DNA of 64,000 bases, from positions 1,135-65,134 of the forward strand of contig JAFGFI010000018.1 in NCBI GenBank assembly GCA_016931185.1, written 5' to 3'. The stretch comes from Anaerolineae bacterium. Its GTDB lineage: Bacteria; Chloroflexota; Anaerolineae; B4-G1; SLSP01. The stretch's first letter is position 1. Every line of letters starts with the position of its first letter. Positions 50,647 to 64,000 of this stretch are shown here, piece by piece. The notes under the pieces are model-generated. The model worked only from the letters and a program-made list of their open reading frames with translations. It searched no databases and had not been told where the DNA came from. Made by a program: the position numbers and the translations under genes.

Positions 50647-51044
50647 GCAGATCTGTATCTATCATCAGAGTTCGCGGATCGAACTGTTACTCCCCAATAG
50701 CCGCCGCCGATGACTGAGACGGCCCCTTGCCATTGCGGCGGAGATTACGGACCACTAATGGTCCATTGTGGAACTACTCTGGTATCACGTCCCGCAGCCG
50801 CCATGCTTGCCTAGACGGCGGGGGCGCTCTTCCCAAGCTTTCTTGGCGCTCAAAAAGCAGTGGCTGAGTTAACCATGGTTCCTGTGATACTACCAGTGAA
50901 TGCAATTTGCATTTTATTTAAATACTATCTATAATAAAAAGTAAAGTGCCCCCACCATAACGGAAGCAGTTACCCGATCAGGTGGCATCAACACCGAATC
51001 GAACCCTTAGCTATTATGGCTAAAAAACATCTAATATAATCACA

Positions 51045-51081
51045 ACACGCCGCCTGGTCAATAACGAACTAGGCGGCGTGT
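51045..51081. other. 11-bp GC-rich hairpin in the island junction
   Basis: ACACGCCGCCT (15-nt loop) AGGCGGCGTGT. No adjacent U-tail on the plus strand. An A-run lies about 17 nt upstream, which is a T-run on the minus strand. Confidence 0.35.
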
Positions 51082-51385
51082 CACATTGATAGAAGATTGT
51101 TTAATTTGATATCGTCCCATATTGTGGTTTAGACTGATATTGCACCTGAGCAAGTAAGGTAGGAAAAGATTCTCCACACTATTAAAGATAACGAGAACTA
51201 TCGGCAGATACAAGGCAAATATCCATGGTTTAGATTTCACGCACTCAATAGTTTGGCGGGGCGAGTGGCAGTGACTTGGCAACGAAGGAACGTAGGTCAT
51301 TATGTAACTCAAGCTCAAAAACTTTACTCCCCTTCCCTTTCAATGATAGGGTGACAACTTGAATTATGTATCAACAAGGAGGGAT

Positions 51386-54300
51386 ATGATGGTCAACATT
51401 AATGCAGCGAGTAAAGAACAGTTAGTTAAGCTGGCGGGAATTGGTGAGGCAAAAGCTGAAAAGATCATAACTTTTAGAGAATCTGGTGGTATCATTAACA
51501 ATATCGAAGAACTAAGGAAAATCGCTGAAGTGCAACCGCATTACTTGGCGGCACTAGAGGCAGAAATTGATTTTCATTTAGATGAAAACTCTGATAGTTT
51601 GTCTTTTATAACTGCACGGCCTTCACTTGACCTAATATCCAAACCACAAATATCTTCCGTGTTCCCAACTGATCCCTACACACCCGTAAAACCTTTGCCA
51701 TTACCTCTCTTTGGTGCCTATCAATTCACAGTGAATTTTGAGAGAATGAATAATTGCCCATTGCCCGATCTTTCAGGATATCAGTTGCTGGTAGGATATC
51801 GCATTGGTAATGTCATCACGGAATCCAAAACCCATATTCGGGAACGGACAAAAACTTATAATCTTGGTAAAAAACCTGCAATTACTATCAGTATCCCTAA
51901 ACCATTCTTGCCGGCTGCTTTTTTGGAGAATGAATTTGAACTTATTTTGTTATCTCCCGAAGAGATTACGGTATACCGTTCGTCTTTTGAGATTGATGAG
52001 GGCGATCAAGTAACAATTGGTGTCCCGCTCTATGGACAACAAACATTGGAAATTACCTGGAATAAGAATGTCGATTACAGAGGTCTCTCTTTAGAGTTAG
52101 CGTATTCGATGAATAGAGGCGCTTCAGGGATAATCGAAAGCACAAAGTCTTTTGAGTTAGGAGGAGAAGAATCTCTACAAGTTGAGTTTGATACATTTGG
52201 GCAAGTGGAAAAGCTCAGTGTTGCAGTTTACTCTAATGAAGGAATTCTTGTTTATCACAGCAAATCTACTTGGGCGGAATTGGGGGGCACAGGAAATGCA
52301 AAAAGCATAAAATGTAAGCTACCAATGCCTGAGGAAATTATATTCAATGTATCGCTTGGGCAAGGTTTATACCAAGATCATCAATTGGTGGCTAACTTTT
52401 ATATACTCGATGAAAAGACACTTTCAACCATCTGTCAGATAGAAGAAAACTATTCGATTACCTCGGAGGGGAAGTCTAAAGTTAAACTGGCTCATTACGG
52501 GCTTGTCAAAGAAATTACACTGACAGTTTATGCTCCTGCGGGGGAAGTTATTGGTAAAAAGACAATAATAAATACAGATTGGAGCGATGGAGGCACAATT
52601 ACAATTGATGCGCCACCGCGTCAACGTGCTGGGGGCAGTGGGCTTGATGAAACGCTTCCTAACCGCCCGAAAAAGACTACAGGACGGGCTATTGACGTAA
52701 GAGGGAAGAAAAAGCTTGAGGGTATTCAGATCATAATCTATGCTTCAAAAGTTCCAAACCCGCAAGAGGCAGATTATGTGCCTCTGTTAGTGCTTCAAAC
52801 CGAGACGGACGGATATTTCTTGTTTGATACGCCAATAGGGTATTATGAGAAAGCGTATGCTATGGTAGGAACACCCAAAAAGGGCGAAGCTGAGAAAGGT
52901 GTATGTAAAGTTGATATCTGTCTTGAACCGGACTTTGTAGAAAAACTCCAACAAGGTGGCCCTCCTAAGAAAGTTGAAAAAAAATTCTTCCCGGGGCGCT
53001 TGCTTTTGGTTATTGATGCTGAATCTGAGTCGCATGGCAAGGATGGGGGCGATTGCGACGATTGCAAAGACTTGAATTTTCATCGTCACAAAGCAGTCGT
53101 AGATGAATTCTCATACTATACAGTGGTTCGAACCACTGAACCTGACATTCAAGGGTATACATTGGAAGAGGATGGGGATGTAACTCTCCAAAAAGTCTTG
53201 GAAGTTGCACCTATCGTTGGGGAAGATGCGAACAGCATACCTCTTGCTATGCGATTTCAGCCAGTGCGTCGCTCCATATTGAATAAATATGTGAATGACC
53301 GGCGAGGTTTGACACTAACAACATTGAAAAAAGCATTGGCAGAAAGTAATGCACGGAAATTGCGGGAACTTATTAAGCCAACGCGCCGCCATCAAACACC
53401 AGGAAGGCACACGTTAGATTTAGATCATGCTATTGATTGGGATAAAGACCCCACTATTTATCAAGCTACAACAATCGCTCATGGCCACTTACTGCACTAT
53501 AAGCAGGAGTGGAAGAACAACGGGTTCGGCATAGGAGATTTGCTCTACAGTTTACCGCTTGCTCCCGGGCAGCAAAAACAAATTGTAGTATTTGACTGGG
53601 AACGCCGTGATTCAGCAAGCCGCAGCGAATCTCTCGATTACCAAGAGAGTCTCTACAATTCCTTAACTCGTGATCGTGATGTAAACGAGATTGTTACGGG
53701 GGTCTTGCGTGAAAGTGTGCGCGGCGGGTCAACAGCTAAAACATCGTCTCGTTCCGGGGGATTGGGTATTGCCGCCATTTCTGGCTCAGTAGGGGGGCTG
53801 TTGGGGATTGCAGGCGGTTCAAGTAAGTCTAGTTCCACTGCTTGGCAAGACTCTTCTCGCAATACAGCATTGCAGGACATGCAACAAATTCGTGACCGGA
53901 CCGTTCAGTCGGCGAACTCGGTCCGTAGTCTGCGTAGCACTGTGGTGACCACGGCAACTCAAGGTGAACGCTTCTCGGTGGAAACAGAGGTTATTGCGAA
54001 TTATAATCACTGTCATTCACTCACAATGCAATACTTCGAAGTATTGCGGCATATGCAAGTTGAAGTACGACTTTCATCAGTGCAAGAGTGTCTATTCATT
54101 CCTTTGATAATGTCGTCTTTTGATCACCAAAAGATTTTACGTTGGCGCGAACCCCTTGCCGGATACATACTTGATGAACAGCTACGCTGTGGCTTTGATG
54201 CAATAGGGCGGATCGAAAACGATTATGAGGGAAGTGACTTGCCTGAAGGTATGTATGCAGAAGATGAAATTGAATACTGGTCTGGTGATTTATATATCAA

Positions 54301-56545
54301 ATTTGATATTCCCTGCCCGGCAGATCTGGAACTCTTTGAAAAAAAGGAGGAGTTGCGTGAGGCTTTATCGCCTTTTATATTCTGGGGATCTTCCATTGAT
54401 CGGTTAATTGACAAAGTTTATGAACAAGCGGCTAACAAGCGTAATGAAGCCTTCTACCGTTTCGTAGCCCCCGAAATTGCAGCGGCAATTGCAGATAAGC
54501 TGCGATTTACAGCAGTTATTCGGCAAGAAAGTAATGAATACTCCGTAGAACTAAATGTTGATACAACACTGGTTTCACGGTTCCAAAATGGACAAAACCA
54601 TTACATCAGCGTGCGAGAACTTACTAGGCAAACTCCCATCAAGCGCATAGATATTGAGGCTATTACAATCCATATTGATGCAAGCACACAATTGAAAAGC
54701 GGCGAGAGCATTGAAGAATTTTTACCCAGTAACACACGGATCATTGTAACCTCAGGCAGTATGAACTATCGCAGTAAGCACTATTCAGGGCTTTTATTCA
54801 AGTCTTCGCGCATCAACAACGACTTAGTTGGCTATGGGGGGGTTTCTTCTAATGATTACGTACGTATCCCAACCCCACTGAGTCACGAGGAAATGCGAAA
54901 CCCCCGGAACGAGGATCTCGAATCAGCCGATCATCTGCGACAGCATTTGAATGACAATCTGGAGTACTATCACAAAATCATCTGGATGAATATGAGCCCA
55001 GAACGTCGCTTTATGTTCCTGGATGGCATTCGGATAACCGATTATTCGGAAGGGGATCGGTATCCTTCTGGCGTGATCAGAAGTGTTGCTTCAGTTGTGG
55101 AAAACAGAGTGATTGGTATTGCCGGGAATAGCTTGGTGATGCCGGTGGCCCCGGGTTTTCGATTGGATCCCAATACACGCGGCCAATATGTAGACCTTCT
55201 TTCCCTTTATCAACCATTGACTCCAGTTGAACCCATTAATATCACGATACCAACGAAAGGCGTATTTGCCGAAGCAGTCATAGGAAAATGCAATAGTTGT
55301 GAGAAAATCCAAAATGATCGCTTCTGGAAATGGGAAGAACATCCAATACCTCACGCACCGACTGAAATTGCAGCAATCGGCACTGAAAGCCGTCGTAGCG
55401 CGCCGCTTGATACTACACCTTCAAGTCTTCCTAATCCTGTGGTTAATATTCAAAATGCCCCGGCGATTCCTGATCCTACAGGGTTATCAGCCGCCGCCAA
55501 CTTGTTAGAACAGGCACGTTTTGAGGATATCACCGGCTTAACTCAGAACCAACAAAATGCCCTGGAAGCATTAAAAGCGTCGCTTAGTGCAGCTCAGGCA
55601 TTTGGTTCGAAGGCTGGCGATATGGCAGCGTTGGGAGCGCAACTTGATAGTATCAGGATCGCTAAAGAAAACAACTTGATCGGTGAAGACAAAGCGCGAG
55701 AACTGAGCGAAAAAGCAATTGAGAATGCTGCCGCCGGTGGGGGAACACCGATTACTGAAGGCTTGTCTGAGTTGAAAAAAGTTCGGGAGATGGCAAAAAA
55801 TGGCACGATTACTGGGGATGTGGAACAAACCGTTACCGACGCTGTTGTCAGTAAAATTAAGCAGGACGCTCAAGGAAAGAAAGATAGTGATATTGGTCAA
55901 ATCATAGATAGAGGCGCATCATTGGTGGGAACAGGTATGGTTACAAATATGACTGCAAAGGCCACTGAGCCGGATGGTAAAACGTCCGAATTGACGTTAG
56001 CGAGTAGCGTAGTAGCTATGCCCCCCACGCCAAAACTGATACTAAGGAGAACAGGAGTTGAGTTTGAAGTTAGCTGCCCCACTGATTTTAGCCCGATTAC
56101 AATTGGTAATTTCAGAACTGTATGTGAGAACGGGAAGCTATATTATTGGGATACTACTGAGTCAGATAAGAATCATAAAAAATTGGTAAAAGGATATCGG
56201 AGCAAGTTAATTGTAGAAAATCCAGATGGCACATCTGAAGAATTTGATGCAATTGAACGGGCTAATGGTTTTACGCATCTTAAAGAAGGCACCTATCAAG
56301 CTACCTGTGAGCCAAGGGCCAGCCATCAAGATAAAGAGGAAATATTGGTGAAGGAGGCCATCTTCATCCATGTGGCAAACTACCCATATCAATTGCATGG
56401 GTGCATTGCACCTGGAGAAATTTGGCCGGAATTTGGTGTTTCCAATTCTACAGCCACATTAGCTAGAATCAATAGCCTCTTGGGATGGGAAAGCGGAAAG
56501 AAAATCGAGCTCGTAGTGAAAGGTTACAAGGAAAAGCCTGGATGA
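51386..56545 (+). CDS. Giant multidomain protein of unknown function (HhH, 3 beta-sandwich-like repeats, CarboxypepD_reg-like, conserved core with glycine-zipper, YkuD-like HGC C-terminal domain)
   Basis: Track ORF 51359..56545 has a TTG start. AAGGAGGG lies directly upstream of ATG 51386. ComEA-like HhH NAASKEQLVKLAGIGEAKAEKI. Glycine zipper GLGIAAISGSVGGLLGIAGG. C-terminal IHVANYPYQLHGCIAPG. Confidence 0.7.
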   Translation: MMVNINAASKEQLVKLAGIGEAKAEKIITFRESGGIINNIEELRKIAEVQPHYLAALEAEIDFHLDENSDSLSFITARPSLDLISKPQISSVFPTDPYTPVKPLPLPLFGAYQFTVNFERMNNCPLPDLSGYQLLVGYRIGNVITESKTHIRERTKTYNLGKKPAITISIPKPFLPAAFLENEFELILLSPEEITVYRSSFEIDEGDQVTIGVPLYGQQTLEITWNKNVDYRGLSLELAYSMNRGASGIIESTKSFELGGEESLQVEFDTFGQVEKLSVAVYSNEGILVYHSKSTWAELGGTGNAKSIKCKLPMPEEIIFNVSLGQGLYQDHQLVANFYILDEKTLSTICQIEENYSITSEGKSKVKLAHYGLVKEITLTVYAPAGEVIGKKTIINTDWSDGGTITIDAPPRQRAGGSGLDETLPNRPKKTTGRAIDVRGKKKLEGIQIIIYASKVPNPQEADYVPLLVLQTETDGYFLFDTPIGYYEKAYAMVGTPKKGEAEKGVCKVDICLEPDFVEKLQQGGPPKKVEKKFFPGRLLLVIDAESESHGKDGGDCDDCKDLNFHRHKAVVDEFSYYTVVRTTEPDIQGYTLEEDGDVTLQKVLEVAPIVGEDANSIPLAMRFQPVRRSILNKYVNDRRGLTLTTLKKALAESNARKLRELIKPTRRHQTPGRHTLDLDHAIDWDKDPTIYQATTIAHGHLLHYKQEWKNNGFGIGDLLYSLPLAPGQQKQIVVFDWERRDSASRSESLDYQESLYNSLTRDRDVNEIVTGVLRESVRGGSTAKTSSRSGGLGIAAISGSVGGLLGIAGGSSKSSSTAWQDSSRNTALQDMQQIRDRTVQSANSVRSLRSTVVTTATQGERFSVETEVIANYNHCHSLTMQYFEVLRHMQVEVRLSSVQECLFIPLIMSSFDHQKILRWREPLAGYILDEQLRCGFDAIGRIENDYEGSDLPEGMYAEDEIEYWSGDLYIKFDIPCPADLELFEKKEELREALSPFIFWGSSIDRLIDKVYEQAANKRNEAFYRFVAPEIAAAIADKLRFTAVIRQESNEYSVELNVDTTLVSRFQNGQNHYISVRELTRQTPIKRIDIEAITIHIDASTQLKSGESIEEFLPSNTRIIVTSGSMNYRSKHYSGLLFKSSRINNDLVGYGGVSSNDYVRIPTPLSHEEMRNPRNEDLESADHLRQHLNDNLEYYHKIIWMNMSPERRFMFLDGIRITDYSEGDRYPSGVIRSVASVVENRVIGIAGNSLVMPVAPGFRLDPNTRGQYVDLLSLYQPLTPVEPINITIPTKGVFAEAVIGKCNSCEKIQNDRFWKWEEHPIPHAPTEIAAIGTESRRSAPLDTTPSSLPNPVVNIQNAPAIPDPTGLSAAANLLEQARFEDITGLTQNQQNALEALKASLSAAQAFGSKAGDMAALGAQLDSIRIAKENNLIGEDKARELSEKAIENAAAGGGTPITEGLSELKKVREMAKNGTITGDVEQTVTDAVVSKIKQDAQGKKDSDIGQIIDRGASLVGTGMVTNMTAKATEPDGKTSELTLASSVVAMPPTPKLILRRTGVEFEVSCPTDFSPITIGNFRTVCENGKLYYWDTTESDKNHKKLVKGYRSKLIVENPDGTSEEFDAIERANGFTHLKEGTYQATCEPRASHQDKEEILVKEAIFIHVANYPYQLHGCIAPGEIWPEFGVSNSTATLARINSLLGWESGKKIELVVKGYKEKPG

Positions 56546-56576
56546 GAGAACACTTAAACATTGACGGAGGTCTAAA

Positions 56577-57128
56577 ATGAATCGCATATTTAGCATCGCT
56601 CAAGGGATATCCGTTCCCGACGGAACAACCGTATATCCTTTCCTGAATTCCAAGGACGAGACTAGCGGCTTACCCTGGAGTCTCTTGGATGGTTTTAGTC
56701 TCTCGGCTGGGGTGGTTGCGCCTAAGAGTTCATCCAAGATACACATTATGCCCTTGGTGACTCAGGTGACCTTTGTCCTTGAGGGTACTATCGAAATATG
56801 GATGAAAGGCTCAGAAAATCCAGAGCCATACAAGCAGGTTTTGACCTCACGACAAGCGATTCTAACCAATCCCGGTGCTTTTTTCCAACTCGTCAATAGC
56901 TCTATGGCGGTTTGCTGGTTGCTCTACATCGTTAGCCCTGCCTATGTATTTGAACTTAGTGATGAGAACGAAGTGATATACGATGACTCAATCATTCTCA
57001 ATGAAAATTGGAAAGAATTAGAAGCAAAAAACTGGCTTTCAGCAAACCCTTGTGATGTTGAAAAGATGCGAGAAGATAGGGCAGTTGCATCTGCACGATT
57101 GGCGGCACAGTCGCGAGCGAGATCATAA
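56577..57128 (+). CDS. Cupin-like beta-barrel protein (no clear metal-binding His cluster)
   Basis: 183-aa ORF with GGAGG upstream. SKIHIMPLVTQVTFVLEGTIEIWMKG and PGAFFQLVN resemble the two cupin motifs. Confidence 0.45.
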   Translation: MNRIFSIAQGISVPDGTTVYPFLNSKDETSGLPWSLLDGFSLSAGVVAPKSSSKIHIMPLVTQVTFVLEGTIEIWMKGSENPEPYKQVLTSRQAILTNPGAFFQLVNSSMAVCWLLYIVSPAYVFELSDENEVIYDDSIILNENWKELEAKNWLSANPCDVEKMREDRAVASARLAAQSRARS

Positions 57129-57204
57129 TAATGCCAATCATTTATCTGAGTCATACTATACCTGAACGGTTGTAGTTTACTATATTTACGACGGAGATAC
57201 TATT

Positions 57205-58617
57205 ATGCCCACTCAAGCGGATTACGAAACAGATGGTATCTTACCTATCATCTATCAACAACTACGTTCTACATTGATAGACTGCGGCCCCTTCTCCAGT
57301 CACGACGAACTCAAAGCCGTTTTCGTCGACAACCGCATCCACCCTTGGCGCAAGTGGATACCTGAAGCCAAAAGCGCCAGCAGCCGCGTCGAAGCCGTTA
57401 TTGACTTTCTCTACAACCAATATACCAGTACGCAGGACAATGCTTTGGTACTGCTGTTGCATGTGTTGAGCGAACGCAAAGAAACTGGTGATGCTTGTCA
57501 TCAAAAGTTGTTCAAATTAGCTGATGATCTCAGCAAAGGATTAGAATCCCATCTTTCTCCTGATGGAACACCACTAACACCACCACCCGATATGTTGCCC
57601 CGGAAATCCTACGATCACTTCACAGGCCGTGCGAAAGAACTACAACAGTTATTGGATGCGCTCCGCAACCCAGATCAGTACCAGTTGATTGCTATATACG
57701 GGTTGGGCGGTATTGGCAAAACTGCATTGGCCCGCGAAGCGTTGGAAGATTGCCGCGATGAGAAATTATTCCAGCACATCGTTTGGATGAGTGCCAAGAC
57801 AGAGCGTTTTGAAGGGGAGGGGACCCATAGACTACCGGTTTCTTCTTTTTCTCTTGACGACATTCTGAATGAAATTGCGCGCCAGTGTCACTTGCCTCAT
57901 CTAGCAAAACTCCCGTCTACAGAAAAGGTTGCGAATATCCAACACATTCTGGCTAACCGCCCTGTGCTCATCGTATTGGACAATATGGAAACGGTCAAAG
58001 ATTGTAAGGAAGTTGTAGGACAATTGGTCGAACTTTTAACAGGGCAAACCAAGTTTTTATTGACCAGCAAACTCCATATTACAAACATCAGCGCTTTTGA
58101 AATGCGCTTGCTAGGGCTTTCACCAGAGAATGGCGAGCTTTTTATGCGTCGCGAAGGCCGCAGTCAAGGTGCATCGGAAGTTGCGGATGCACCTTCAGAC
58201 ATACTTCAGAATATCGTGGGGGTATGCGGCGGTGCTCCGTTAGCGATGAAATTGATCGTCAGCCAATTAAAGCGCCGCGCTTTACAAGATGTGCTGGATA
58301 ATCTTAAAGTGGTTACGTCTGATGGCCCCGACTACGACTTCTACCGCTTTATTTACAAAGGCTCTTGGGATTTATTGAGCTTGGATGCCAAAAAAGTGTT
58401 GGTTTCGATGTCAGTCTTTGATTTGGAGAGCGGTGGGCGCGCTGATATGATGCGCGAGGTCAGCGATGTGGCCCCAGATGCCTTTGAAGACGCGGTGGTT
58501 GAACTGGTGATGATGTCATTAACGAACCTGGTAGGGCAGTTAGGCCAACGGCGCTACACACTGCATCAATTGACCTACTATTTCATTTTATCAGACATTG
58601 TAAAGAAATGGGGGTAA
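57205..58617 (+). CDS. NB-ARC (AP-ATPase) STAND NTPase with N-terminal helical adaptor-like domain
   Basis: Walker A IYGLGGIGKTALA, Walker B VLIVLDNME, GxP motif CGGAPLAMKLI. About 140 aa of helical N-terminal extension. Confidence 0.8.
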   Translation: MPTQADYETDGILPIIYQQLRSTLIDCGPFSSHDELKAVFVDNRIHPWRKWIPEAKSASSRVEAVIDFLYNQYTSTQDNALVLLLHVLSERKETGDACHQKLFKLADDLSKGLESHLSPDGTPLTPPPDMLPRKSYDHFTGRAKELQQLLDALRNPDQYQLIAIYGLGGIGKTALAREALEDCRDEKLFQHIVWMSAKTERFEGEGTHRLPVSSFSLDDILNEIARQCHLPHLAKLPSTEKVANIQHILANRPVLIVLDNMETVKDCKEVVGQLVELLTGQTKFLLTSKLHITNISAFEMRLLGLSPENGELFMRREGRSQGASEVADAPSDILQNIVGVCGGAPLAMKLIVSQLKRRALQDVLDNLKVVTSDGPDYDFYRFIYKGSWDLLSLDAKKVLVSMSVFDLESGGRADMMREVSDVAPDAFEDAVVELVMMSLTNLVGQLGQRRYTLHQLTYYFILSDIVKKWG

Positions 58618-58620
58618 AGA

Positions 58621-59829
58621 GTGATGAGTGAAGAACCTGAATGGCTGTCATTTTATCAAGATCGGGGACGCCGGCACGCAACCCTGGCATTAGCGTTTGC
58701 AGTACAGCACGGGCAAAATACACCGGAGGCACATCAGCAGTTGGCACAGGAACTCCCCAACATGGTCAGGGCGCTAGAGTGGATGCAAACGCACACTCAC
58801 TGGCACAATATCGCACATTTGTTCTCGGCTTTGTGGGAAGAAAGCCGATTTCTACAGGATCGTGGCCCGGCTCCTGCGTACCTCATTGAGGGAAAAGGGC
58901 ATTTGCTGCCTGCTGCCGATTTGCTCCCCCTGCTGGAAATGGGTGTGCTGGCGGCACGCGAACTAAAGGATAACCATAAACTATGCATGTGTTTAAACGC
59001 ACTGGGAAGCACGTTGCGAGCAATGGGCAAGGTTGATGAGGCGCTTGCGCTACATAATGAAGCCTTGACCATAGCACAGCAATTCGAGGATGCATCTCCT
59101 GCGCGCCAGACGCTTTCTCTTTTGGGCATGGTGTGGATTGATAAAGATGTAAACCAGGCGTTACCTCACTTGCAAAAGGCACTTAACACACCAGTATCCC
59201 ACACCAATGTGGAACTGGATATTGATCTCTTTGGCGCACTTGCAACCGCTCACGCGCAACTGGGGCAAATGGCATTGTTGAACCAGCTAAGCGAGCCGGG
59301 AAAGGCGGCTTTCGAGAAGGCCGCTACCTATCTGGAAAAGGCATTAGGCTTAGCAACAAAATCCCAGGATAAGCGACGCCAGGCAGAACTATATCACCAA
59401 CGTGGGTATTTGCGCAGCGTTACAAATGACTTGGAGAATGCGCGTGCCGATTTTCAGCAGGCTGCCGACCTTAGTAAAGAAGTAGGCCATCAATGGGGAT
59501 ATGGACGAGCTTTACAGGCTTTAGGAGTTCTGCGTATACAAATCGGGCAGGTAGCGCAGAACACCAATAAAGTCGCGCTAGGTATCACCGATTTAGAAAA
59601 GGCTCTGACGTTGCTAGAACAAACCGGGGATGGAGAAATCATAGCTTCCACATTGGCAGCCTTAGGCCAGGGATATGCGCTTTTGGGGCAGTTAGATATG
59701 GCAAAAGCACATTTGGAACATGCATTGGAAGTTATCAAGGCTTTTAGTGATTTACCCAAGATCGCAGCCTTGGAACAGGCGATTTTGCCGTTATTAGCTT
59801 ATGTAAAGCAAGCGAAAGGAGAAAAGTGA
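58621..59829 (+). CDS. TPR-repeat protein (expected sensor arm of the preceding NB-ARC module)
   Basis: 402-aa ORF, same reading frame as 57205..58617, separated by TAA plus one codon. Repeated A..Y...G / L..A..I helical pairs (ALALHNEALTIAQQFED, AELYHQRGYLRSVTNDLENARADF). Confidence 0.75.
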   Translation: MMSEEPEWLSFYQDRGRRHATLALAFAVQHGQNTPEAHQQLAQELPNMVRALEWMQTHTHWHNIAHLFSALWEESRFLQDRGPAPAYLIEGKGHLLPAADLLPLLEMGVLAARELKDNHKLCMCLNALGSTLRAMGKVDEALALHNEALTIAQQFEDASPARQTLSLLGMVWIDKDVNQALPHLQKALNTPVSHTNVELDIDLFGALATAHAQLGQMALLNQLSEPGKAAFEKAATYLEKALGLATKSQDKRRQAELYHQRGYLRSVTNDLENARADFQQAADLSKEVGHQWGYGRALQALGVLRIQIGQVAQNTNKVALGITDLEKALTLLEQTGDGEIIASTLAALGQGYALLGQLDMAKAHLEHALEVIKAFSDLPKIAALEQAILPLLAYVKQAKGEK

Positions 59830-59830
59830 G

Positions 59831-60892
59831 ATGGTTATACCAGCTTTGATGATCGGATTGTTAATTGCTAAAGGACTGACGGTGGTCGGACCAAAGCACG
59901 AATACCTGGAAAAACATGATCCAAATCTCCCCTTCTACGAAGAAGACACTTTTCCTACCTTGTTGGAGAAAATAGCGCCTTACACACATTCGAGGTTTCA
60001 GCTACACATAAATCGTTCGGCCGATCTTTTTGCTCAATTACACACAATGTTGATGCTTTTGCAAGGGGCAACTATGGATTTCGCAAAGGGTAGGATTGAT
60101 CATTCCAACATGCAGCCAGGGTATCAGTATGATAATTACGAAACTATTCTTGTGAATGCTTATAGTAATGAGGAGGACAAAAAGATAATTGACGGCAAAC
60201 TAAACGCAATTTCCAAAGTATCTGATGAGAGCTTTGGTGAGTATATTATTGATCATTACCAAGATATGGCGAAGTGTTTGGTGGGATATTTGGATATAGC
60301 ATCGAAATTAACAAACGGTTTTGACATTTCGGGCTGCTTAAATGAATGTCAAAATACCATAGGGAAGTTACCACCCGGTGACTCTATTAAAAAGACATGC
60401 ATGACTGAGTTCCTGGCATTAACGCGCCTTCTGTTTTCTGGGGTAGATTTAAAGAAGGTGCTGGACTTAGCTACTAACTTAAATCTAAATGTTCCTCCTC
60501 ACGAATGGCTTGATCAACAATTATCAGCGGGTACCCTATGGCAGGACGTGGTAAATTATTATGCTTCTCCTGCCGCTACATCTAAGGCAAAACTTACCCT
60601 GAGTCATATCTATGTGATGTTGGAAGAAAGTTATTGGTTTTACAATAGAATTCGCTATAAAGACCCTCATAATCCGGAGATGAGCAACAATCGATTAGGC
60701 ATAGATTTTAAATGCGCGATCGGATTTGATGATGAAGGAAAGTGTGACAATCTAAATACAGGCCAACTTCCTGCTGGATACCAAGCCACATGGGAGAAGT
60801 TGCGTCTGGCGTTACATGGCGCAGTCGCGTGGTATATGTATTGCCTCTGCGCTTATGCAGTAAATGAGATTAAAGCTGCGTTAACCCCGTGA
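59831..60892 (+). CDS. Orphan protein with N-terminal hydrophobic helix
   Basis: 353-aa ORF. Its ATG lies 1 nt after the TPR stop, which suggests translational coupling. N-terminal MVIPALMIGLLIAKGLTVVG. No recognised domain. Confidence 0.5.
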   Translation: MVIPALMIGLLIAKGLTVVGPKHEYLEKHDPNLPFYEEDTFPTLLEKIAPYTHSRFQLHINRSADLFAQLHTMLMLLQGATMDFAKGRIDHSNMQPGYQYDNYETILVNAYSNEEDKKIIDGKLNAISKVSDESFGEYIIDHYQDMAKCLVGYLDIASKLTNGFDISGCLNECQNTIGKLPPGDSIKKTCMTEFLALTRLLFSGVDLKKVLDLATNLNLNVPPHEWLDQQLSAGTLWQDVVNYYASPAATSKAKLTLSHIYVMLEESYWFYNRIRYKDPHNPEMSNNRLGIDFKCAIGFDDEGKCDNLNTGQLPAGYQATWEKLRLALHGAVAWYMYCLCAYAVNEIKAALTP

Positions 60893-60983
60893 TCTCTACT
60901 CGCGGGCGGTTGCGTGAGTGTGGGCAGAACCGTGTAAATGTCGGTTCTACTCTACATATCACTTGTTATAAGGAGAGTGAGCA

Positions 60984-63900
60984 ATGACTGAGCAATCCAC
61001 GTATCAGGATTTTGATGTATTCCTAGACTGTAAATTGGATGCGAACAATAATTTCCAAAACATCACACTTAAAGATGCTGAGGGTAACAAATGTACAGTT
61101 CATTACAACTTTTCAAAACCTGTTGGGAGGATTAAAAAAGCGATGGCAATGGCCAAGCACACTACAGAATCTTCTCAATGGCTAGACGAATTAGGCGCGG
61201 AACTTCAAGGGCTTTTCTTTCCCAATACCGGTGAAGGCCGCAACTTAACTGATAAATTCTGCGGGTTTCTAAAAAAGTTGGGAAACTCAGGCAAGGCGCG
61301 GCTCCGGTTATTTTATCCCAACGATGTGAATAAAATTATTGCGTTGCTGGGTGTTCCCTGGGAGTATCTCTATCTAGACTCGCAGTGTACTGGATTAGAA
61401 AAGAGTTACTTGTGCCTCAACAAACGTTTTTCGCTGGTGCATTGTTTGATCAATAAACCAGAAGAACTTGGCAAATGCGAACACTTACCTCTTAAAGCAT
61501 CTTTCTATATGCATTTAGAGAATGTGCAATCGGTAATTAAGGAGCTTGATATAATTCAATATTTAGCTCTTGGAGAAAAAGAAAAGCTTGCATTCGCAGG
61601 GAATGACCCTCAGAGGAAAGGCGAAATAGATTTGCTTGTTCAGCGCGCTAACGATTTGGTTATTATGTACAAGGAGATAGCCTATGATCTGAAGCAGTCT
61701 GGGCGCCCTCATATTATCCAACTATCAGGATATCATGAGATGCTAGAAAAAGAACATATACAGTGGGCAACTGAGACCTTTGACATAATCCAATATTTGG
61801 CTCATGGAGATATTGACGGACTGGCGTTAGCAAACGGTGACACCTACAAGAAAGCAGAAATAATAAACGATATTCAGAAACCTAAGACTAAAGTTGTTAT
61901 TCTAGGTGTGTGTAGTAGCGCGAGTAGTTACTCAGGAGCAGCCGTGGCTTTCCATGAAGCCGGTGTCCCCATTGTCGTTGGAATGACCCAGATAACCGCT
62001 ACATCCGTAGCCAGTAGTTTCTTAGAAGCCTTGTACACGCAGTTAGCAGAACGTCTGTGTAGTGTGGAAGAAGCGGTGGCAGTCGCTCGGAGTCAGTTAT
62101 ACGAAGAGAAGGGTTGCGATCAATTTTCTTTGCATTGGGGAATACCGCGCCTCTTTATGCGCAGTACTCATAGCGACCTCATTGACCGACAATCCTTGTA
62201 TGAACGTGTCTATAACATATCCACTTGCAAAGAAATCAGAGAAAAAATCCTGCCACCGGAACAATCGATAGATATTCAATCTTTTGTTCGTTGGTCAAAA
62301 ACTTTGAGAGAATGGATTGATAGCGAGAAAGTAGGCATGCTTTATCTTTATGGCCGGGATGGGAGTGCCAAAAGTACCGAGGTGGCGCGCTTGTTACACG
62401 AGTACGATGGACAGAACAATAAACCTAAGCTGTTAGGCCACTTTTGCCGTAATGATGATCATCAAACTTCTAATCCTCTCATATTCGTTCGCGACTCGCT
62501 GTACCCCCAGCTTGAAGATTACTATGGGGCTGACTTTTATCGAGGATACTTGAGAGGGGTGTTTCCTAGGGCTGCTTATGACGCTAGATTTGCATTTTAC
62601 AATCTATTTCTCCTTCCCCTTAGCCGAATTCGCGAGAAAAACCCAGAGGCCCGTTTGCCTACAATTATTATCGACGCAATTGATGATGCTGTAGCGCGCT
62701 ATCCAAGCGAGTCTATTCTTGATCTGTTAATTGACCACCAACATGCGATCACCCAAGTTGCTCGCGTGATCATTACCGGTAACTACTCAGAAGAACCTGA
62801 TTCTCCTCATCAACGCATTCGCGTGGAACTGGAACCGGAGATTATTAGCATATCAGAAGATATTATATCTTGTGGACAACTACCAACCATCAAAGAGACT
62901 GATATTGAAGAAAAGATACCAGATGCATCGCTGCGAGCGCTCACTTTTAAGCACATAAACGAAATTTGTGAACCGGAGCAAAAAATGCAATTGTGGCGCT
63001 TCTTGTCGGATTGTGGTGCTGATCTGCGCAAAGTCTTATGTGGGATAAGCAAGTCGGACAAAAAACCGCTTCCATTGGAAAACTACTATCAAGCGTATTT
63101 GGATATTGTGAAGAGTAAGAATGAATATGCTGAAGACTTGCTACGCGTGTTGCTTGTTGCATATAGACCGCTCTCGGCAAAGTTTTTGAAACAACTTTTT
63201 CAAGAAGTAGAAATCTTGAATGTTTCAAAGGTTATGGACGAGATGCCGGCATTTATTCATAGTACGGATAGTGTTTACACATGTCACAGCAGTATCAGAC
63301 GCTTTCTAAATGAAAAACTTTTCTTTTGCCCCGATCCTAACAAAATCATAAAACCCCCGCGTGATGAAAGTCTTAAGCCGAATTATAGCGCCAGGTCAGA
63401 TGCTCATGGTTTTTTTATGAATTTATATGCCGGGGAGGAGATGGTCAAATTGCAAAATTGGTATGAATTGAATGAAAAATGGGGGAACTATGTTCAAAAT
63501 TACCTACCTTTGCATGCCTACAAGTGTTATCAGTATGCCTGTTATGGTTATATGGAAATATCAAATGAAATTGATGATCCTGCGGAACTTTGGGATCACT
63601 TTTCCCAAGAGTATGACCAAGGAATCAGAGATGGTGAATATTATACGCGGTCTAGTCTGGGAAATTTAAATTATGTAGACGGGCAGTCTTGGAATAGGCG
63701 TTCTCTTAGTGCAATGGCATTTCTACACCTTATCAGCCAACCTTCTTTTCGCGAATTCCGTATGTACACAGAAGGCACAGAGGCAGTTGTTGACGATATG
63801 CTTTTTGGTTTAAGAGTTACTTTGTTTGAACACATGTTGAACCTTTCAATTATGCTTGCTCCCAATTATGGATCAAAAGAATACAGTAAACATAGACAAG

Positions 63901-64000
63901 GTTTTGCTCGCTTGATAACAGCTTACGAGCATATTCTGGACATTTTAACGGAGGATAAAGAGAAGGAGTTGATCGGCCTCGAACGAAAAGTACGAGGGGT
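60984..64000 (+). CDS. CHAT (caspase-fold) protease fused to a P-loop STAND-like NTPase; 3' partial
   Basis: Not in the ORF track because no stop occurs before the window end. My hand translation from ATG 60984 (AGGAGAG upstream) stays open to 64000. LRLFYPNDV...LGVPWEYLYLD. His in QYLAHGD (codon about 61803-61805). Cys in VVILGVCSSASS (codon about 61911-61913). P-loop-like LYLYGRDGSAKST and Walker-B-like PTIIIDAIDDA. Confidence 0.75.
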   Translation, partial: MTEQSTYQDFDVFLDCKLDANNNFQNITLKDAEGNKCTVHYNFSKPVGRIKKAMAMAKHTTESSQWLDELGAELQGLFFPNTGEGRNLTDKFCGFLKKLGNSGKARLRLFYPNDVNKIIALLGVPWEYLYLDSQCTGLEKSYLCLNKRFSLVHCLINKPEELGKCEHLPLKASFYMHLENVQSVIKELDIIQYLALGEKEKLAFAGNDPQRKGEIDLLVQRANDLVIMYKEIAYDLKQSGRPHIIQLSGYHEMLEKEHIQWATETFDIIQYLAHGDIDGLALANGDTYKKAEIINDIQKPKTKVVILGVCSSASSYSGAAVAFHEAGVPIVVGMTQITATSVASSFLEALYTQLAERLCSVEEAVAVARSQLYEEKGCDQFSLHWGIPRLFMRSTHSDLIDRQSLYERVYNISTCKEIREKILPPEQSIDIQSFVRWSKTLREWIDSEKVGMLYLYGRDGSAKSTEVARLLHEYDGQNNKPKLLGHFCRNDDHQTSNPLIFVRDSLYPQLEDYYGADFYRGYLRGVFPRAAYDARFAFYNLFLLPLSRIREKNPEARLPTIIIDAIDDAVARYPSESILDLLIDHQHAITQVARVIITGNYSEEPDSPHQRIRVELEPEIISISEDIISCGQLPTIKETDIEEKIPDASLRALTFKHINEICEPEQKMQLWRFLSDCGADLRKVLCGISKSDKKPLPLENYYQAYLDIVKSKNEYAEDLLRVLLVAYRPLSAKFLKQLFQEVEILNVSKVMDEMPAFIHSTDSVYTCHSSIRRFLNEKLFFCPDPNKIIKPPRDESLKPNYSARSDAHGFFMNLYAGEEMVKLQNWYELNEKWGNYVQNYLPLHAYKCYQYACYGYMEISNEIDDPAELWDHFSQEYDQGIRDGEYYTRSSLGNLNYVDGQSWNRRSLSAMAFLHLISQPSFREFRMYTEGTEAVVDDMLFGLRVTLFEHMLNLSIMLAPNYGSKEYSKHRQGFARLITAYEHILDILTEDKEKELIGLERKVRG

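What the first reader, a model, noticed from the sequence alone, without database searches (positions are those of the whole stretch)
53753..53818. Glycine-zipper hydrophobic segment embedded in Ser/Thr-rich linkers inside the giant protein
The segment SGGLGIAAISGSVGGLLGIAGGSS has repeated GxxxG spacing and is flanked by polar low-complexity stretches (STAKTSSRS and SSKSSSTAWQDSSR). Glycine zippers are established membrane-inserting and pore-forming elements in several toxins. It is the only strongly hydrophobic stretch I saw in an otherwise soluble-looking protein. That would fit a latent membrane-disrupting effector unmasked by proteolysis, for example by the neighbouring CHAT protease.
Basis: partly seen in the sequence, partly recalled or inferred. 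Interest (0 to 1): 0.6.

Follow-up and report, generated by a model that had tools for sequence, protein, structure and literature searches.

The report
Glycine-rich hairpin in giant protein
The glycine-rich hydrophobic stretch is real and is a conserved hallmark of a very large, undescribed family of stand-alone giant bacterial proteins with exchangeable cell-wall enzymes; sequence patterns show it is the tip of a long two-stranded hairpin that probably inserts into a membrane, and I found no link to the neighbouring CHAT protease.

Summary
The segment SGGLGIAAISGSVGGLLGIAGGSS (aa 799-822, nt 53753-53824) exists as described. It is the most hydrophobic window of the 1,719/1,728-aa protein.

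It is not a local oddity. All 248 aligned homologues keep it, including members only about 36% identical. The family has at least 3,375 clusters at 50% identity and occurs in at least 315 species, from Bacteroidota to Streptomyces, Mycobacterium and Legionella.

The Ser/Thr "linkers" are not linkers. Alternate positions on both flanks and inside the Gly segment are 90-100% small residues. The opposite face changes from charged to hydrophobic towards a central Gly-Pro turn. Segment length is 15, 19, 23, 27 or 31 in 91% of members, and the turn stays centred. Covarying pairs lie on the antiparallel register (p about 1e-8).

This points to a symmetric beta-hairpin with a hydrophobic tip. That is the pattern of a pore-toxin stem rather than a glycine-zipper helix. 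AlphaFold places it at low confidence in a roughly 26-residue beta-ribbon, not in a core. Foldseek matches only beta-barrel pore toxins, and weakly.

Membrane insertion is therefore plausible but unproven. The CHAT link is not supported: none of 87 homologue loci has a CHAT, TPR or orphan neighbour, and one has a weak STAND-ATPase match.

The parts
51386..56545 (+). Giant gene. It is 1,719 aa from the ATG at 51386; the ORF opens at the TTG at 51359, giving 1,728 aa, which is the numbering used in this report.
   Evidence: The collection holds the 1,719-aa form (P0002). It is a single copy in its own genome.
51392..51562 (+). N-terminal ComEA-like helix-hairpin-helix domain (aa 12-68). There is no signal peptide before it.
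   Evidence: Pfam HHH_3 at 1.4e-13. PDB ComEA hits. The sequence starts MMVNINAASKEQL....
53126..55378 (+). Conserved family core (aa 590-1340). No Pfam, NCBIfam or PDB sequence match. It contains invariant HGH, NYNHCH and CNSCE motifs.
   Evidence: AF2 mean pLDDT is 71.8, and 80-95 for aa ~920-1320.
53723..53863 (+). Inferred long beta-hairpin (aa 789-835): Ser/Thr-rich strand, Gly-rich hydrophobic tip, Ser/Thr-rich strand.
   Evidence: Dyad periodicity of small residues on both arms, in register. Covariation on the antidiagonals i+j = 22-25. AF2 gives strands 782-807 and 812-837 in the sub-fragment model at pLDDT 41-52.
53753..53824 (+). The reported Gly-rich hydrophobic segment SGGLGIAAISGSVGGLLGIAGGSS (aa 799-822). 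The central turn is at G809-S810 (nt 53783-53788), which corresponds to the family's G-P turn.
56261..56479 (+). C-terminal DUF5675 domain (C82/YkuD-like, probably acting on peptidoglycan) with an LHGCIAPG motif. This is the exchangeable 'enzyme head' of this family member.
   Evidence: Pfam DUF5675 scores 30 bits against a 26.7-bit cut-off when the C-terminus is scanned alone. phrog_1501 also matches. A preprint groups DUF5675 structurally with C82 peptidases among predicted phage lysins (10.64898/2026.04.11.717860).

Best explanation
The segment is the hydrophobic, glycine-rich tip of a long symmetric beta-hairpin, about 25 residues per arm with a turn at G809-S810. The hairpin sits in the conserved core of a widespread family of stand-alone giant proteins. 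These proteins have an N-terminal ComEA-like HhH domain, beta-sandwich modules, a core of about 750 aa and an exchangeable C-terminal enzyme that mostly acts on the cell wall. Here that enzyme is a C82/YkuD-like DUF5675 domain.

One face of the hairpin carries only Gly/Ala/Ser/Thr. The other face is charged far from the turn and hydrophobic for about 11 residues per arm next to it. The most likely mechanism (inferred, not shown) is that the core oligomerises when triggered. The hairpins would then line up into a beta-barrel or beta-sheet stem whose tips insert into a lipid bilayer. This would anchor the protein or open a pore, giving the C-terminal enzyme access to peptidoglycan.

I cannot tell whether the bilayer is the producer's own cytoplasmic membrane (self-export or autolysis) or a target cell's membrane. 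The element works independently of the neighbouring STAND/TPR/CHAT cassette, which merely shares the same low-GC island.
For: SHOWN:
- The segment is conserved in 248 of 248 homologues and in members at 36% identity.
- The family has 3,375 clusters with E<=1e-3 and 1,654 with E<=1e-30, and occurs in at least 315 GTDB species.
- Segment length is congruent to 3 mod 4 in 226 of 248 members. Pro and the turn stay centred as the length changes 19, 23, 27, 31, and indels and charged residues sit at the centre.
- Alternate positions -6 to 8 on arm 1 and 19 to 31 on arm 2 are 90-100% small residues. They are in register for a turn at positions 12-13. The opposite face switches from polar/charged to hydrophobic towards the turn (parity permutation p = 0.01 and 0.05).
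- 10 of the top 15 covarying pairs lie on i+j = 22-25, against 33 of 377 eligible pairs (hypergeometric p = 1.5e-8). The top pair is -1/26, the predicted cross-strand pair.
- AF2 never buries the segment. It is a low-confidence tip or hairpin beside confident 28-residue strands.
- Foldseek top hits are almost all pore states of beta-barrel pore toxins or tube-forming phage tail proteins.
- There is no signal peptide, yet C-terminal domains across the family work outside the cytoplasm: M23, M15, muramidase, DUF2272, LysM, OmpA, PG_binding_1, tyrosinase.
- There are no conserved partner genes.

FROM THE LITERATURE:
- Ser/Thr-rich strands flank the membrane-inserting hairpin of aerolysin-type toxins (PMC4179158).
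- Glycine-rich GxxxG segments permeabilise membranes in bacterial effectors (PMC10240207).
Against: - There is no experimental datum.
- AF2 confidence over aa 750-870 is below 50. Foldseek TM-scores are 0.05-0.2 with rmsd of 15-45 A, so fold homology to pore toxins is not established. The hits may only reflect long hairpins.
- The tip is not classically amphipathic. Its putative lumen face is Gly/Ala rather than Ser/Thr, and arm 2 shows alpha-like periodicity near the turn.
- The Wimley-White octanol scale predicts unfavourable insertion as a helix.
- In this particular protein, position 1 of the tip is Arg, where 86% of the family have a hydrophobic residue.
- The covariation test has only 127 distinct sequences and no phylogenetic correction beyond APC.
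- No oligomer could be modelled.
Confidence: 0.5

Rival explanations
1. The segment is a single-pass glycine-zipper transmembrane helix. It would anchor the protein with the HhH-bearing N-terminal half in the cytoplasm and the enzyme-bearing C-terminal half outside. The GxxxG faces would drive helix-helix oligomerisation.
For: The common length is 19-23 uncharged residues and the Kyte-Doolittle score of 1.58 is the protein's maximum. The family pattern is G4xxxG8xxxG12 and G15xxxG19xxxG23. Arm 2 shows 100-110 degree periodicity. This topology would elegantly put a DNA-binding HhH domain inside and the peptidoglycan enzymes outside.
Against: There is a central Gly-Pro, and often charged residues and Pro-rich insertions sit in the middle (IIPAGDVPIP, IIPIEVPIG). 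Length varies from 15 to 31 in symmetric steps around that centre. Dyad periodicity runs continuously from the flanks into the segment. Covariation is antiparallel between the two halves. The Wimley-White dG is positive in 229 of 248 members. AF2 gives no helix there.
Confidence: 0.13
2. The segment is not membrane-related. It is a conserved Gly-rich flexible loop or beta-ribbon used for self-assembly. The small-residue face would pack tightly against another sheet or subunit, like a steric zipper or a tube wall. Alternatively it acts as a mobile lid or plug inside the core.
For: The segment is 43% Gly and AF2 pLDDT is below 50. Among the Foldseek hits are phage collar, tail-tube and flagellar LP-ring proteins, whose long hairpins build soluble or wall-spanning tubes rather than lipid pores. 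An all-small face is ideal for close sheet-sheet packing.
Against: Hydrophobic residues are strictly kept on the exposed face only within about 11 residues of the turn, and charge is absent there in about 80% of members. The family needs some way to cross a membrane, and no other conserved hydrophobic element or partner exists.
Confidence: 0.27
3. The giant protein is a latent membrane-disrupting effector of the adjacent STAND/CHAT system, and the CHAT protease cleaves it to unmask the glycine zipper, as happens with gasdermin.
For: The genes are co-directional and lie in one low-GC island. Caspase-like proteases do activate pore-formers in bacterial gasdermin systems (my own knowledge of the field).
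Against: None of 87 homologue loci has a CHAT, TPR or orphan-353 neighbour. Only one has a weak STAND hit. Six loci read gene by gene show none. The giant protein has no death-like adaptor domain to match the bDLD1 domain of the NB-ARC protein. The giant family is huge, whereas the cassette's orphan gene has one homologue in 5.8 billion proteins.
Confidence: 0.04

Closest known systems
Membrane-inserting stem hairpins of beta-barrel pore-forming toxins (aerolysin/ETX-MTX2 family, lysenin; anthrax-PA/iota-Ib/CDTb-type translocases)
   Same: Both have a long beta-hairpin whose tip-proximal outer face is hydrophobic and whose other face is small or polar. Both are flanked by Ser/Thr-rich strands (PMC4179158). 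These proteins are the only recurrent Foldseek matches.
   Different: There is no sequence or Pfam relationship and TM-scores are at most 0.2. The tip is Gly-rich rather than alternating Ser/Thr with hydrophobic residues. The hairpin is embedded in a 1,700-aa cytoplasmically made protein with no signal peptide. The protein carries its own enzyme on the same chain.
Glycine-zipper membrane-permeabilising segments of bacterial effectors (Tde1 N-terminus, TelE, EsxX; VacA)
   Same: Both have repeated GxxxG in an uncharged hydrophobic stretch within a toxin or effector-like protein. In those effectors the stretch is proposed to carry the cargo across a membrane (PMC10240207, PMC10434224, PMC12744356).
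   Different: Those segments are thought to be helical and are terminal. Here the evidence favours a beta-hairpin in the middle of a conserved core. No Pfam Gly-zipper family matches.
Polymorphic toxin systems (Rhs, CdiA, LXG, MafB and others)
   Same: Both have a conserved long scaffold with highly variable C-terminal enzymatic domains. Both are patchy, accessory and located in genomic islands.
   Different: There is no recognised trafficking domain and no linked secretion system. There is no obligatory downstream immunity gene: a co-directional ORF within 150 nt occurs in 28 of 61 loci, and a small one in 17 of 61. The heads are mostly peptidoglycan enzymes or binders rather than nucleases or deaminases.
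Phage tail or ejection proteins that combine a membrane-penetrating hydrophobic loop with a muralytic domain (phi29 tail knob gp9; T5 pb2)
   Same: The functional logic is the same: a DNA-associated module, long beta or tube-forming elements, a hydrophobic membrane-penetrating loop and a peptidoglycan hydrolase in one machine (PMC6542822 for phi29; pb2 from my own knowledge). Weak Foldseek hits to phi29, Andhra and P68 tail parts were found.
   Different: The family is essentially absent from phage genomes. The one hit in 50,697 records is a mislabelled bacterial scaffold. The gene stands alone among cellular genes.

Membership tests
Aerolysin-type beta-pore-forming toxins (ETX_MTX2/aerolysin) | Sequence or profile match to the family's pore-forming module | tested here: not met
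   There are no Pfam hits at E<=0.1 on the whole protein or at E<=10 on the segment. Neither the protein nor the family profile matches any PDB pore-toxin sequence.
Aerolysin-type beta-pore-forming toxins (ETX_MTX2/aerolysin) | Fold similarity of the elongated beta-sheet module | tested here: inconclusive
   The top Foldseek hits are lysenin, epsilon-toxin, aerolysin and parasporin-2. However, E is 1e-4 to 1e-2, TM is 0.05-0.17, and the model has pLDDT below 50 in the hairpin.
Aerolysin-type beta-pore-forming toxins (ETX_MTX2/aerolysin) | Insertion hairpin with dyad periodicity, flanked by Ser/Thr-rich strands | tested here: met
   The flanks are Ser/Thr-rich. A stripe of small residues at alternate positions lies in register on both arms, and hydrophobic residues on the other face occur only near the turn. 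Covariation is antiparallel.
Glycine-zipper membrane proteins (Pfam Gly-zipper_Omp/OmpA/YMGG, Rick_17kDa_Anti) | Profile match to a Gly-zipper family | tested here: not met
   Scanning the 81-aa region and the family consensus at E<=10 gave no Gly-zipper family.
Glycine-zipper membrane proteins (motif level) | Consecutive (G/A/S)xxxGxxxG motifs in a hydrophobic stretch | tested here: met
   This protein has G812xxxG816xxxG820. The family has G4xxxG8xxxG12 and G15xxxG19xxxG23.
Polymorphic toxin systems | Conserved scaffold with variable C-terminal toxin or enzyme domains | tested here: met
   C-termini include tyrosinase, DUF2272, M23, M15_4, muramidase, C70, C39-like, C11, LysM, OmpA and DUF5675.
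Polymorphic toxin systems | Cognate immunity gene immediately downstream | tested here: not met
   Only 17 of 61 loci have a small co-directional ORF within 150 nt. In about half of the loci the next gene is on the opposite strand. Downstream proteins are unrelated to one another.
Polymorphic toxin systems | N-terminal trafficking domain or linkage to a secretion system | tested here: not met
   The N-terminus is an HhH domain. No secretion genes recur in 79 loci. The T2SS next to the Lysobacter copy is a one-off.
Protease-activated bacterial pore-formers (gasdermin plus caspase-like/CHAT operons) | Conserved adjacency of the pore-former and the protease | tested here: not met
   No CHAT was found in 87 homologue loci. 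The gene-by-gene Pfam lists of six loci show none.
DUF5675 / peptidase C82-like (YkuD fold) for the C-terminal head | Pfam gathering score and a His...Gly-Cys catalytic-type motif | tested here: met
   The score is 30.0 bits against a 26.7-bit cut-off when the last 174 aa are scanned alone. The sequence contains ...IHVANYPYQLHGCIAPG.... The structural grouping with C82 comes from 10.64898/2026.04.11.717860. Catalytic activity was not tested.

The most novel reading that the evidence does not exclude
The family is an undescribed class of autonomous envelope-breaching machines. A cytoplasmically made giant protein would oligomerise through its core into a beta-barrel whose Gly-rich hairpin tips pierce a membrane. 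Its own C-terminal enzyme would be threaded or exposed through or beside that pore. This would be a one-polypeptide equivalent of a binary-toxin translocase, or of a holin-endolysin pair, needing no dedicated secretion system and no immunity gene. It would be present in hundreds of species, including Legionella, Mycobacterium, Streptomyces, Myxococcus and Bdellovibrio.
Probability: 0.3. Interest if true: 0.85.

Novelty: new variant of a known kind. Interest (0 to 1): 0.66.

Why it matters
If the hairpin really inserts into membranes, it is the working part of a very large protein family with no Pfam model for its core, no solved relative and no paper that I could find. The family has at least 3,375 clusters at 50% identity across more than ten phyla. 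It would explain how 1,500-2,600-aa proteins without signal peptides bring peptidoglycan hydrolases, tyrosinases and proteases to the cell envelope.

That would add either a new route of protein export or autolysis, or a new kind of interbacterial weapon. It would also provide a compact, sequence-defined element (about 47 residues) that can be tested directly in liposomes. Finally, it corrects the local annotation: the giant gene and the STAND/CHAT cassette are two separate passengers of one genomic island.

Tried and rejected
- Sequence searches gave nothing for the core. Pfam, NCBIfam, PADLOC and PHROGs on the whole protein and on six sub-fragments returned only HHH_3 and DUF5675/phrog_1501.
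- PDB sequence searches with the protein and with the family profile returned only HhH proteins.
- A phage origin is rejected. The one phage-database hit is an 'UNVERIFIED' scaffold carrying a solute symporter and an epimerase.
- CHAT or STAND linkage is rejected.
- I tried to trace the cassette from the other side through the 353-aa orphan. That failed because it has one homologue on a 1.2-kb contig and none in 400 genomes of the phylum.
- An immunity-gene arrangement is not found.
- A stable TM helix is not supported by the Wimley-White scale.
- Fourier periodicity of the 23-mer alone was ambiguous: arm 1 looked beta-like and arm 2 alpha-like. The wider parity, length and covariation analyses resolved this.
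- Re-folding the 226-aa sub-fragment gave a worse model (pLDDT 56.7), so its Foldseek hits carry little weight.
- Literature searches found no description of the family. I tried glycine zipper with HhH with polymorphic toxin, DUF2272 with HHH_3, and Legionella peptidase C39 with amidase.
Full report
1. OBSERVATION

The ORF 51359..56545 (+) translates without stops to 1,728 aa. The public collection holds the 1,719-aa form, which starts at the ATG at 51386 (P0002).

The quoted peptide SGGLGIAAISGSVGGLLGIAGGSS is aa 799-822, which is nt 53753-53824.

A Kyte-Doolittle scan ranks LGIAAISGSVGGLLGIAGG first in the protein, at 1.58 against 1.28 for the next window. This confirms it is the only markedly hydrophobic stretch. 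On the Wimley-White octanol scale, however, it is not a favourable TM helix.

2. THE PROTEIN AND ITS FAMILY

Pfam finds only two domains:
- an N-terminal ComEA-like HHH_3 domain at aa 12-68, starting at residue 3 of the ATG form, so there is no signal peptide;
- a C-terminal DUF5675 domain. It scores 25 bits in the whole protein and 30 bits, above the gathering cut-off, when the last 174 aa are scanned alone.

A recent preprint groups DUF5675 structurally with C82 (YkuD-type) peptidases among predicted phage lysins. The motif LHGCIAPG is present.

The roughly 750-aa core (aa 590-1340) matches nothing in Pfam, NCBIfam, PADLOC, PHROGs or PDB sequences, even when searched as a 61-sequence profile.

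The core is nonetheless very common:
- 887 or more hits in the word-indexed search, at 44-67% identity over aa 650-1150;
- 3,375 clusters at 50% identity with E<=1e-3, and 1,654 with E<=1e-30, in the exhaustive search;
- 315 GTDB species hit by just two peptide patterns. These include Flavobacteriaceae, Saprospiraceae, Desulfobacteraceae, Streptomyces, Mycobacterium, Myxococcus, Bdellovibrio, Legionella (including L. pneumophila), Chloroflexi, Acidobacteria, Verrucomicrobia, Nitrospira and Melainabacteria.

Most members keep the HhH head. The C-termini differ: tyrosinase, DUF2272, M23, M15_4, muramidase, PG_binding_1, LysM, OmpA, C70, C39-like and C11. In Legionella the C-terminus is a papain-like domain plus an amidase.

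3. CONTEXT

The gene is accessory:
- it is absent from 40 relatives of the same family or order;
- it is absent from 400 other genomes of the phylum;
- it lies in a block of 40-48% GC that begins near nt 51000, next to housekeeping genes at 52-58% GC.

Downstream lie a 183-aa weakly cupin-like ORF, a bDLD1-NB-ARC ATPase, a TPR protein, a 353-aa orphan and a CHAT-NTPase.

None of these travels with the giant gene elsewhere:
- Six homologue neighbourhoods read gene by gene show unrelated neighbours.
- Clustering all flanking ORFs of 79 loci finds only one recurrent neighbour, a second giant paralogue in tandem in 11 of 79 loci.
- tblastn of the five window proteins against 87 loci (1.49 Mb) gives a single weak STAND hit and no CHAT.

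Only 17 of 61 loci have a small co-directional ORF within 150 nt downstream. The downstream proteins are unrelated to one another. The toxin-immunity layout of classical polymorphic toxins is therefore absent.

The family is also not a phage family. The sole phage-database hit is a mislabelled bacterial scaffold. It does occur on 33 plasmids.

4. ANATOMY OF THE SEGMENT

All 248 homologues aligned over aa 760-870 keep an uncharged Gly-rich stretch between two very conserved motifs:
- upstream: SRDRDINEIV....E..RGGS.A.T;
- downstream: S.ASS.AWQ.SSR....L..LRDRT.QSA..VRSQRSTVVQT..QGE.

Members at 36-37% identity keep it as well. The stretch is 43% Gly and free of charge in about 80% of members.

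Three family-level patterns define its shape.

(a) Length. 226 of 248 segments are 15, 19, 23, 27 or 31 residues long, that is 3 mod 4. Insertions, prolines and the occasional charged residues sit in the middle (GAIIGPVGAL, then AVVPAGPVPLGG, then GIIPAGDVPIPFG). The mean Pro position tracks the midpoint: 10.5, 12.9, 14.2 and 17.6 for lengths 19, 23, 27 and 31. The two halves therefore grow and shrink together by two residues each.

(b) Periodicity. Results for the 128 members of the 23-residue class are as follows:
- Positions -6, -4, -2, 0, 2, 4, 6 and 8 are 90-100% Gly/Ala/Ser/Thr.
- Positions 19, 21, 23, 25, 27, 29 and 31 are 100% Gly/Ala/Ser/Thr.
- These two stripes pair exactly (i+j = 25) if the turn is at positions 12-13, which are G and P in the family and G809-S810 here.
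- The other face is variable and charged far from the turn (positions -5, -3; 24-30). It is hydrophobic near the turn (positions 1, 5, 7, 11; 14, 18, 20).

The 'Ser/Thr-rich linkers' are thus the outer parts of the same two strands.

(c) Covariation. With APC-corrected mutual information on 127 distinct sequences, the best pair is -1/26. Ten of the top 15 pairs fall on the antidiagonals 22-25, against 33 of 377 eligible pairs (hypergeometric p = 1.5e-8). This test has no phylogenetic correction beyond APC.

Together these patterns indicate a symmetric antiparallel hairpin, most simply a beta-hairpin. Steps of two residues per arm preserve which side each residue faces. GxxxG spacings do exist (G4/G8/G12 and G15/G19/G23), and the second arm alone has alpha-like periodicity. 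A helical hairpin is therefore not excluded, but a single continuous TM helix fits poorly.

5. STRUCTURE PREDICTION

AF2 on aa 590-1340 with a 61-sequence alignment gives a mean pLDDT of 71.8:
- aa ~920-1320 are confident (80-95);
- two pairs of very long strands are fairly confident: aa 707-734/739-752 and aa 867-880/888-915;
- aa 750-870 fall below 50. Strands 783-799 and 820-836 flank the Gly segment, which is drawn as the tip.

The 226-aa sub-fragment model is poorer (pLDDT 56.7). It draws one continuous hairpin, aa 782-807 and 812-837, with the turn at 808-811. That is exactly where the sequence analysis puts it.

Foldseek against the PDB returns almost only proteins whose long hairpins build oligomeric barrels: lysenin, epsilon-toxin, aerolysin, parasporin-2, anthrax PA, CDTb, iota-Ib, V. 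cholerae cytolysin, and the tail or collar proteins of phi29, Andhra and P68. These come with E of 1e-4 to 1e-2, TM of 0.05-0.2 and very large rmsd. BFVD gives nothing solid. I take this as a statement about local geometry, not homology.

If the six strands form a simple meander, the invariant YSLPLAPGQ and ANYNHCH turns would lie at the same end as the Gly tip. This is an inference from the DSSP order only, because I had no coordinates.

6. MECHANISM

Shown:
- a deeply conserved, symmetric, two-armed element with a hydrophobic tip;
- no signal peptide;
- C-terminal domains that work on or in the cell wall;
- no conserved partner genes.

Inferred:
- The tip inserts into a bilayer, probably after oligomerisation of the core into a barrel-like stem.
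- This fits the known association of Ser/Thr-rich strands with the insertion hairpins of aerolysin-type toxins (PMC4179158).
- It also fits the membrane-permeabilising role of Gly-rich GxxxG segments in effectors (PMC10240207).

The data do not say whether the membrane is the producer's own (self-export or autolysis) or that of another cell. The lack of immunity genes argues weakly against a classical sibling-killing toxin. I put the membrane-hairpin model at about 0.5, a non-membrane assembly or loop role at about 0.27, a single-span glycine-zipper helix at about 0.13, and CHAT-dependent activation at about 0.04.

7. COMPARISON AND NOVELTY

The element works like a pore-toxin stem hairpin or a fusion loop. 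It fails the sequence and fold membership tests for the aerolysin and Gly-zipper families.

The protein resembles polymorphic toxins in having swappable heads. It lacks their trafficking domain, their secretion-system linkage and their immunity gene.

I found no publication describing the family. I rate it a new variant of a known kind, namely a membrane-inserting hairpin in an undescribed carrier family. There is a substantial chance that the whole machine is something new.

Noticed in passing
window 53126-55378 (core); alignment A1: Across 61 homologues the motifs HGH (aa 708-710), NYNHCH (aa 881-886) and CNSCE (aa 1311-1315) are invariant or nearly so. This looks like a metal-binding or catalytic site in the otherwise unannotated core. 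NYNHCH sits at a predicted hairpin turn.
   Followed up: partly
loci L022, L064, L069 and eight others of L011-L089: In 11 of 79 homologue loci a second giant paralogue lies directly adjacent on the same strand, 10-440 nt away.
   Followed up: partly
L068 (L. pneumophila subsp. fraseri) and cluster 1: A 1,735-aa homologue is common in Legionella pneumophila: a 194-member cluster seen on hundreds of contigs. It is annotated only as 'peptidase C39 / papain-like cysteine protease / N-acetylmuramoyl-L-alanine amidase'. It lacks the HhH head but keeps the Gly hairpin (ASAGIGGVVGGLLFGVSGG).
   Followed up: partly
window 51000-64000: GC drops from 52-58% to 40-48% at about nt 51000. The giant gene and the NB-ARC/TPR/orphan/CHAT cassette share one low-GC island but appear to be independent passengers.
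   Followed up: partly
window 57205-59829: The NB-ARC ORF (57205..58617) and the TPR ORF (58621..59829) are in the same frame, separated by a single stop. This could be a split or read-through STAND protein.
   Followed up: no
L008 (MT835996.1): This 'UNVERIFIED Bacteriophage sp.' scaffold from the phage collection carries a family member with a DUF2272 head, next to a sodium:solute symporter and an epimerase. It looks like a high-GC bacterial contig, not a phage.
   Followed up: yes
(plasmids) and L035: Family members occur on plasmids of Psychrobacter, Polaromonas, Bacillus tropicus, Nostoc and the archaeon Haladaptatus, and in a Nitrosopumilus MAG. This hints at transfer across domains, or at binning contamination.
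   Followed up: no
window 56577-57128: A 183-aa ORF lies 32 nt downstream of the giant gene, with only a weak Cupin_2 hit. It has no counterpart next to the seven other homologue genes I compared, so it is not a conserved immunity partner.
   Followed up: partly
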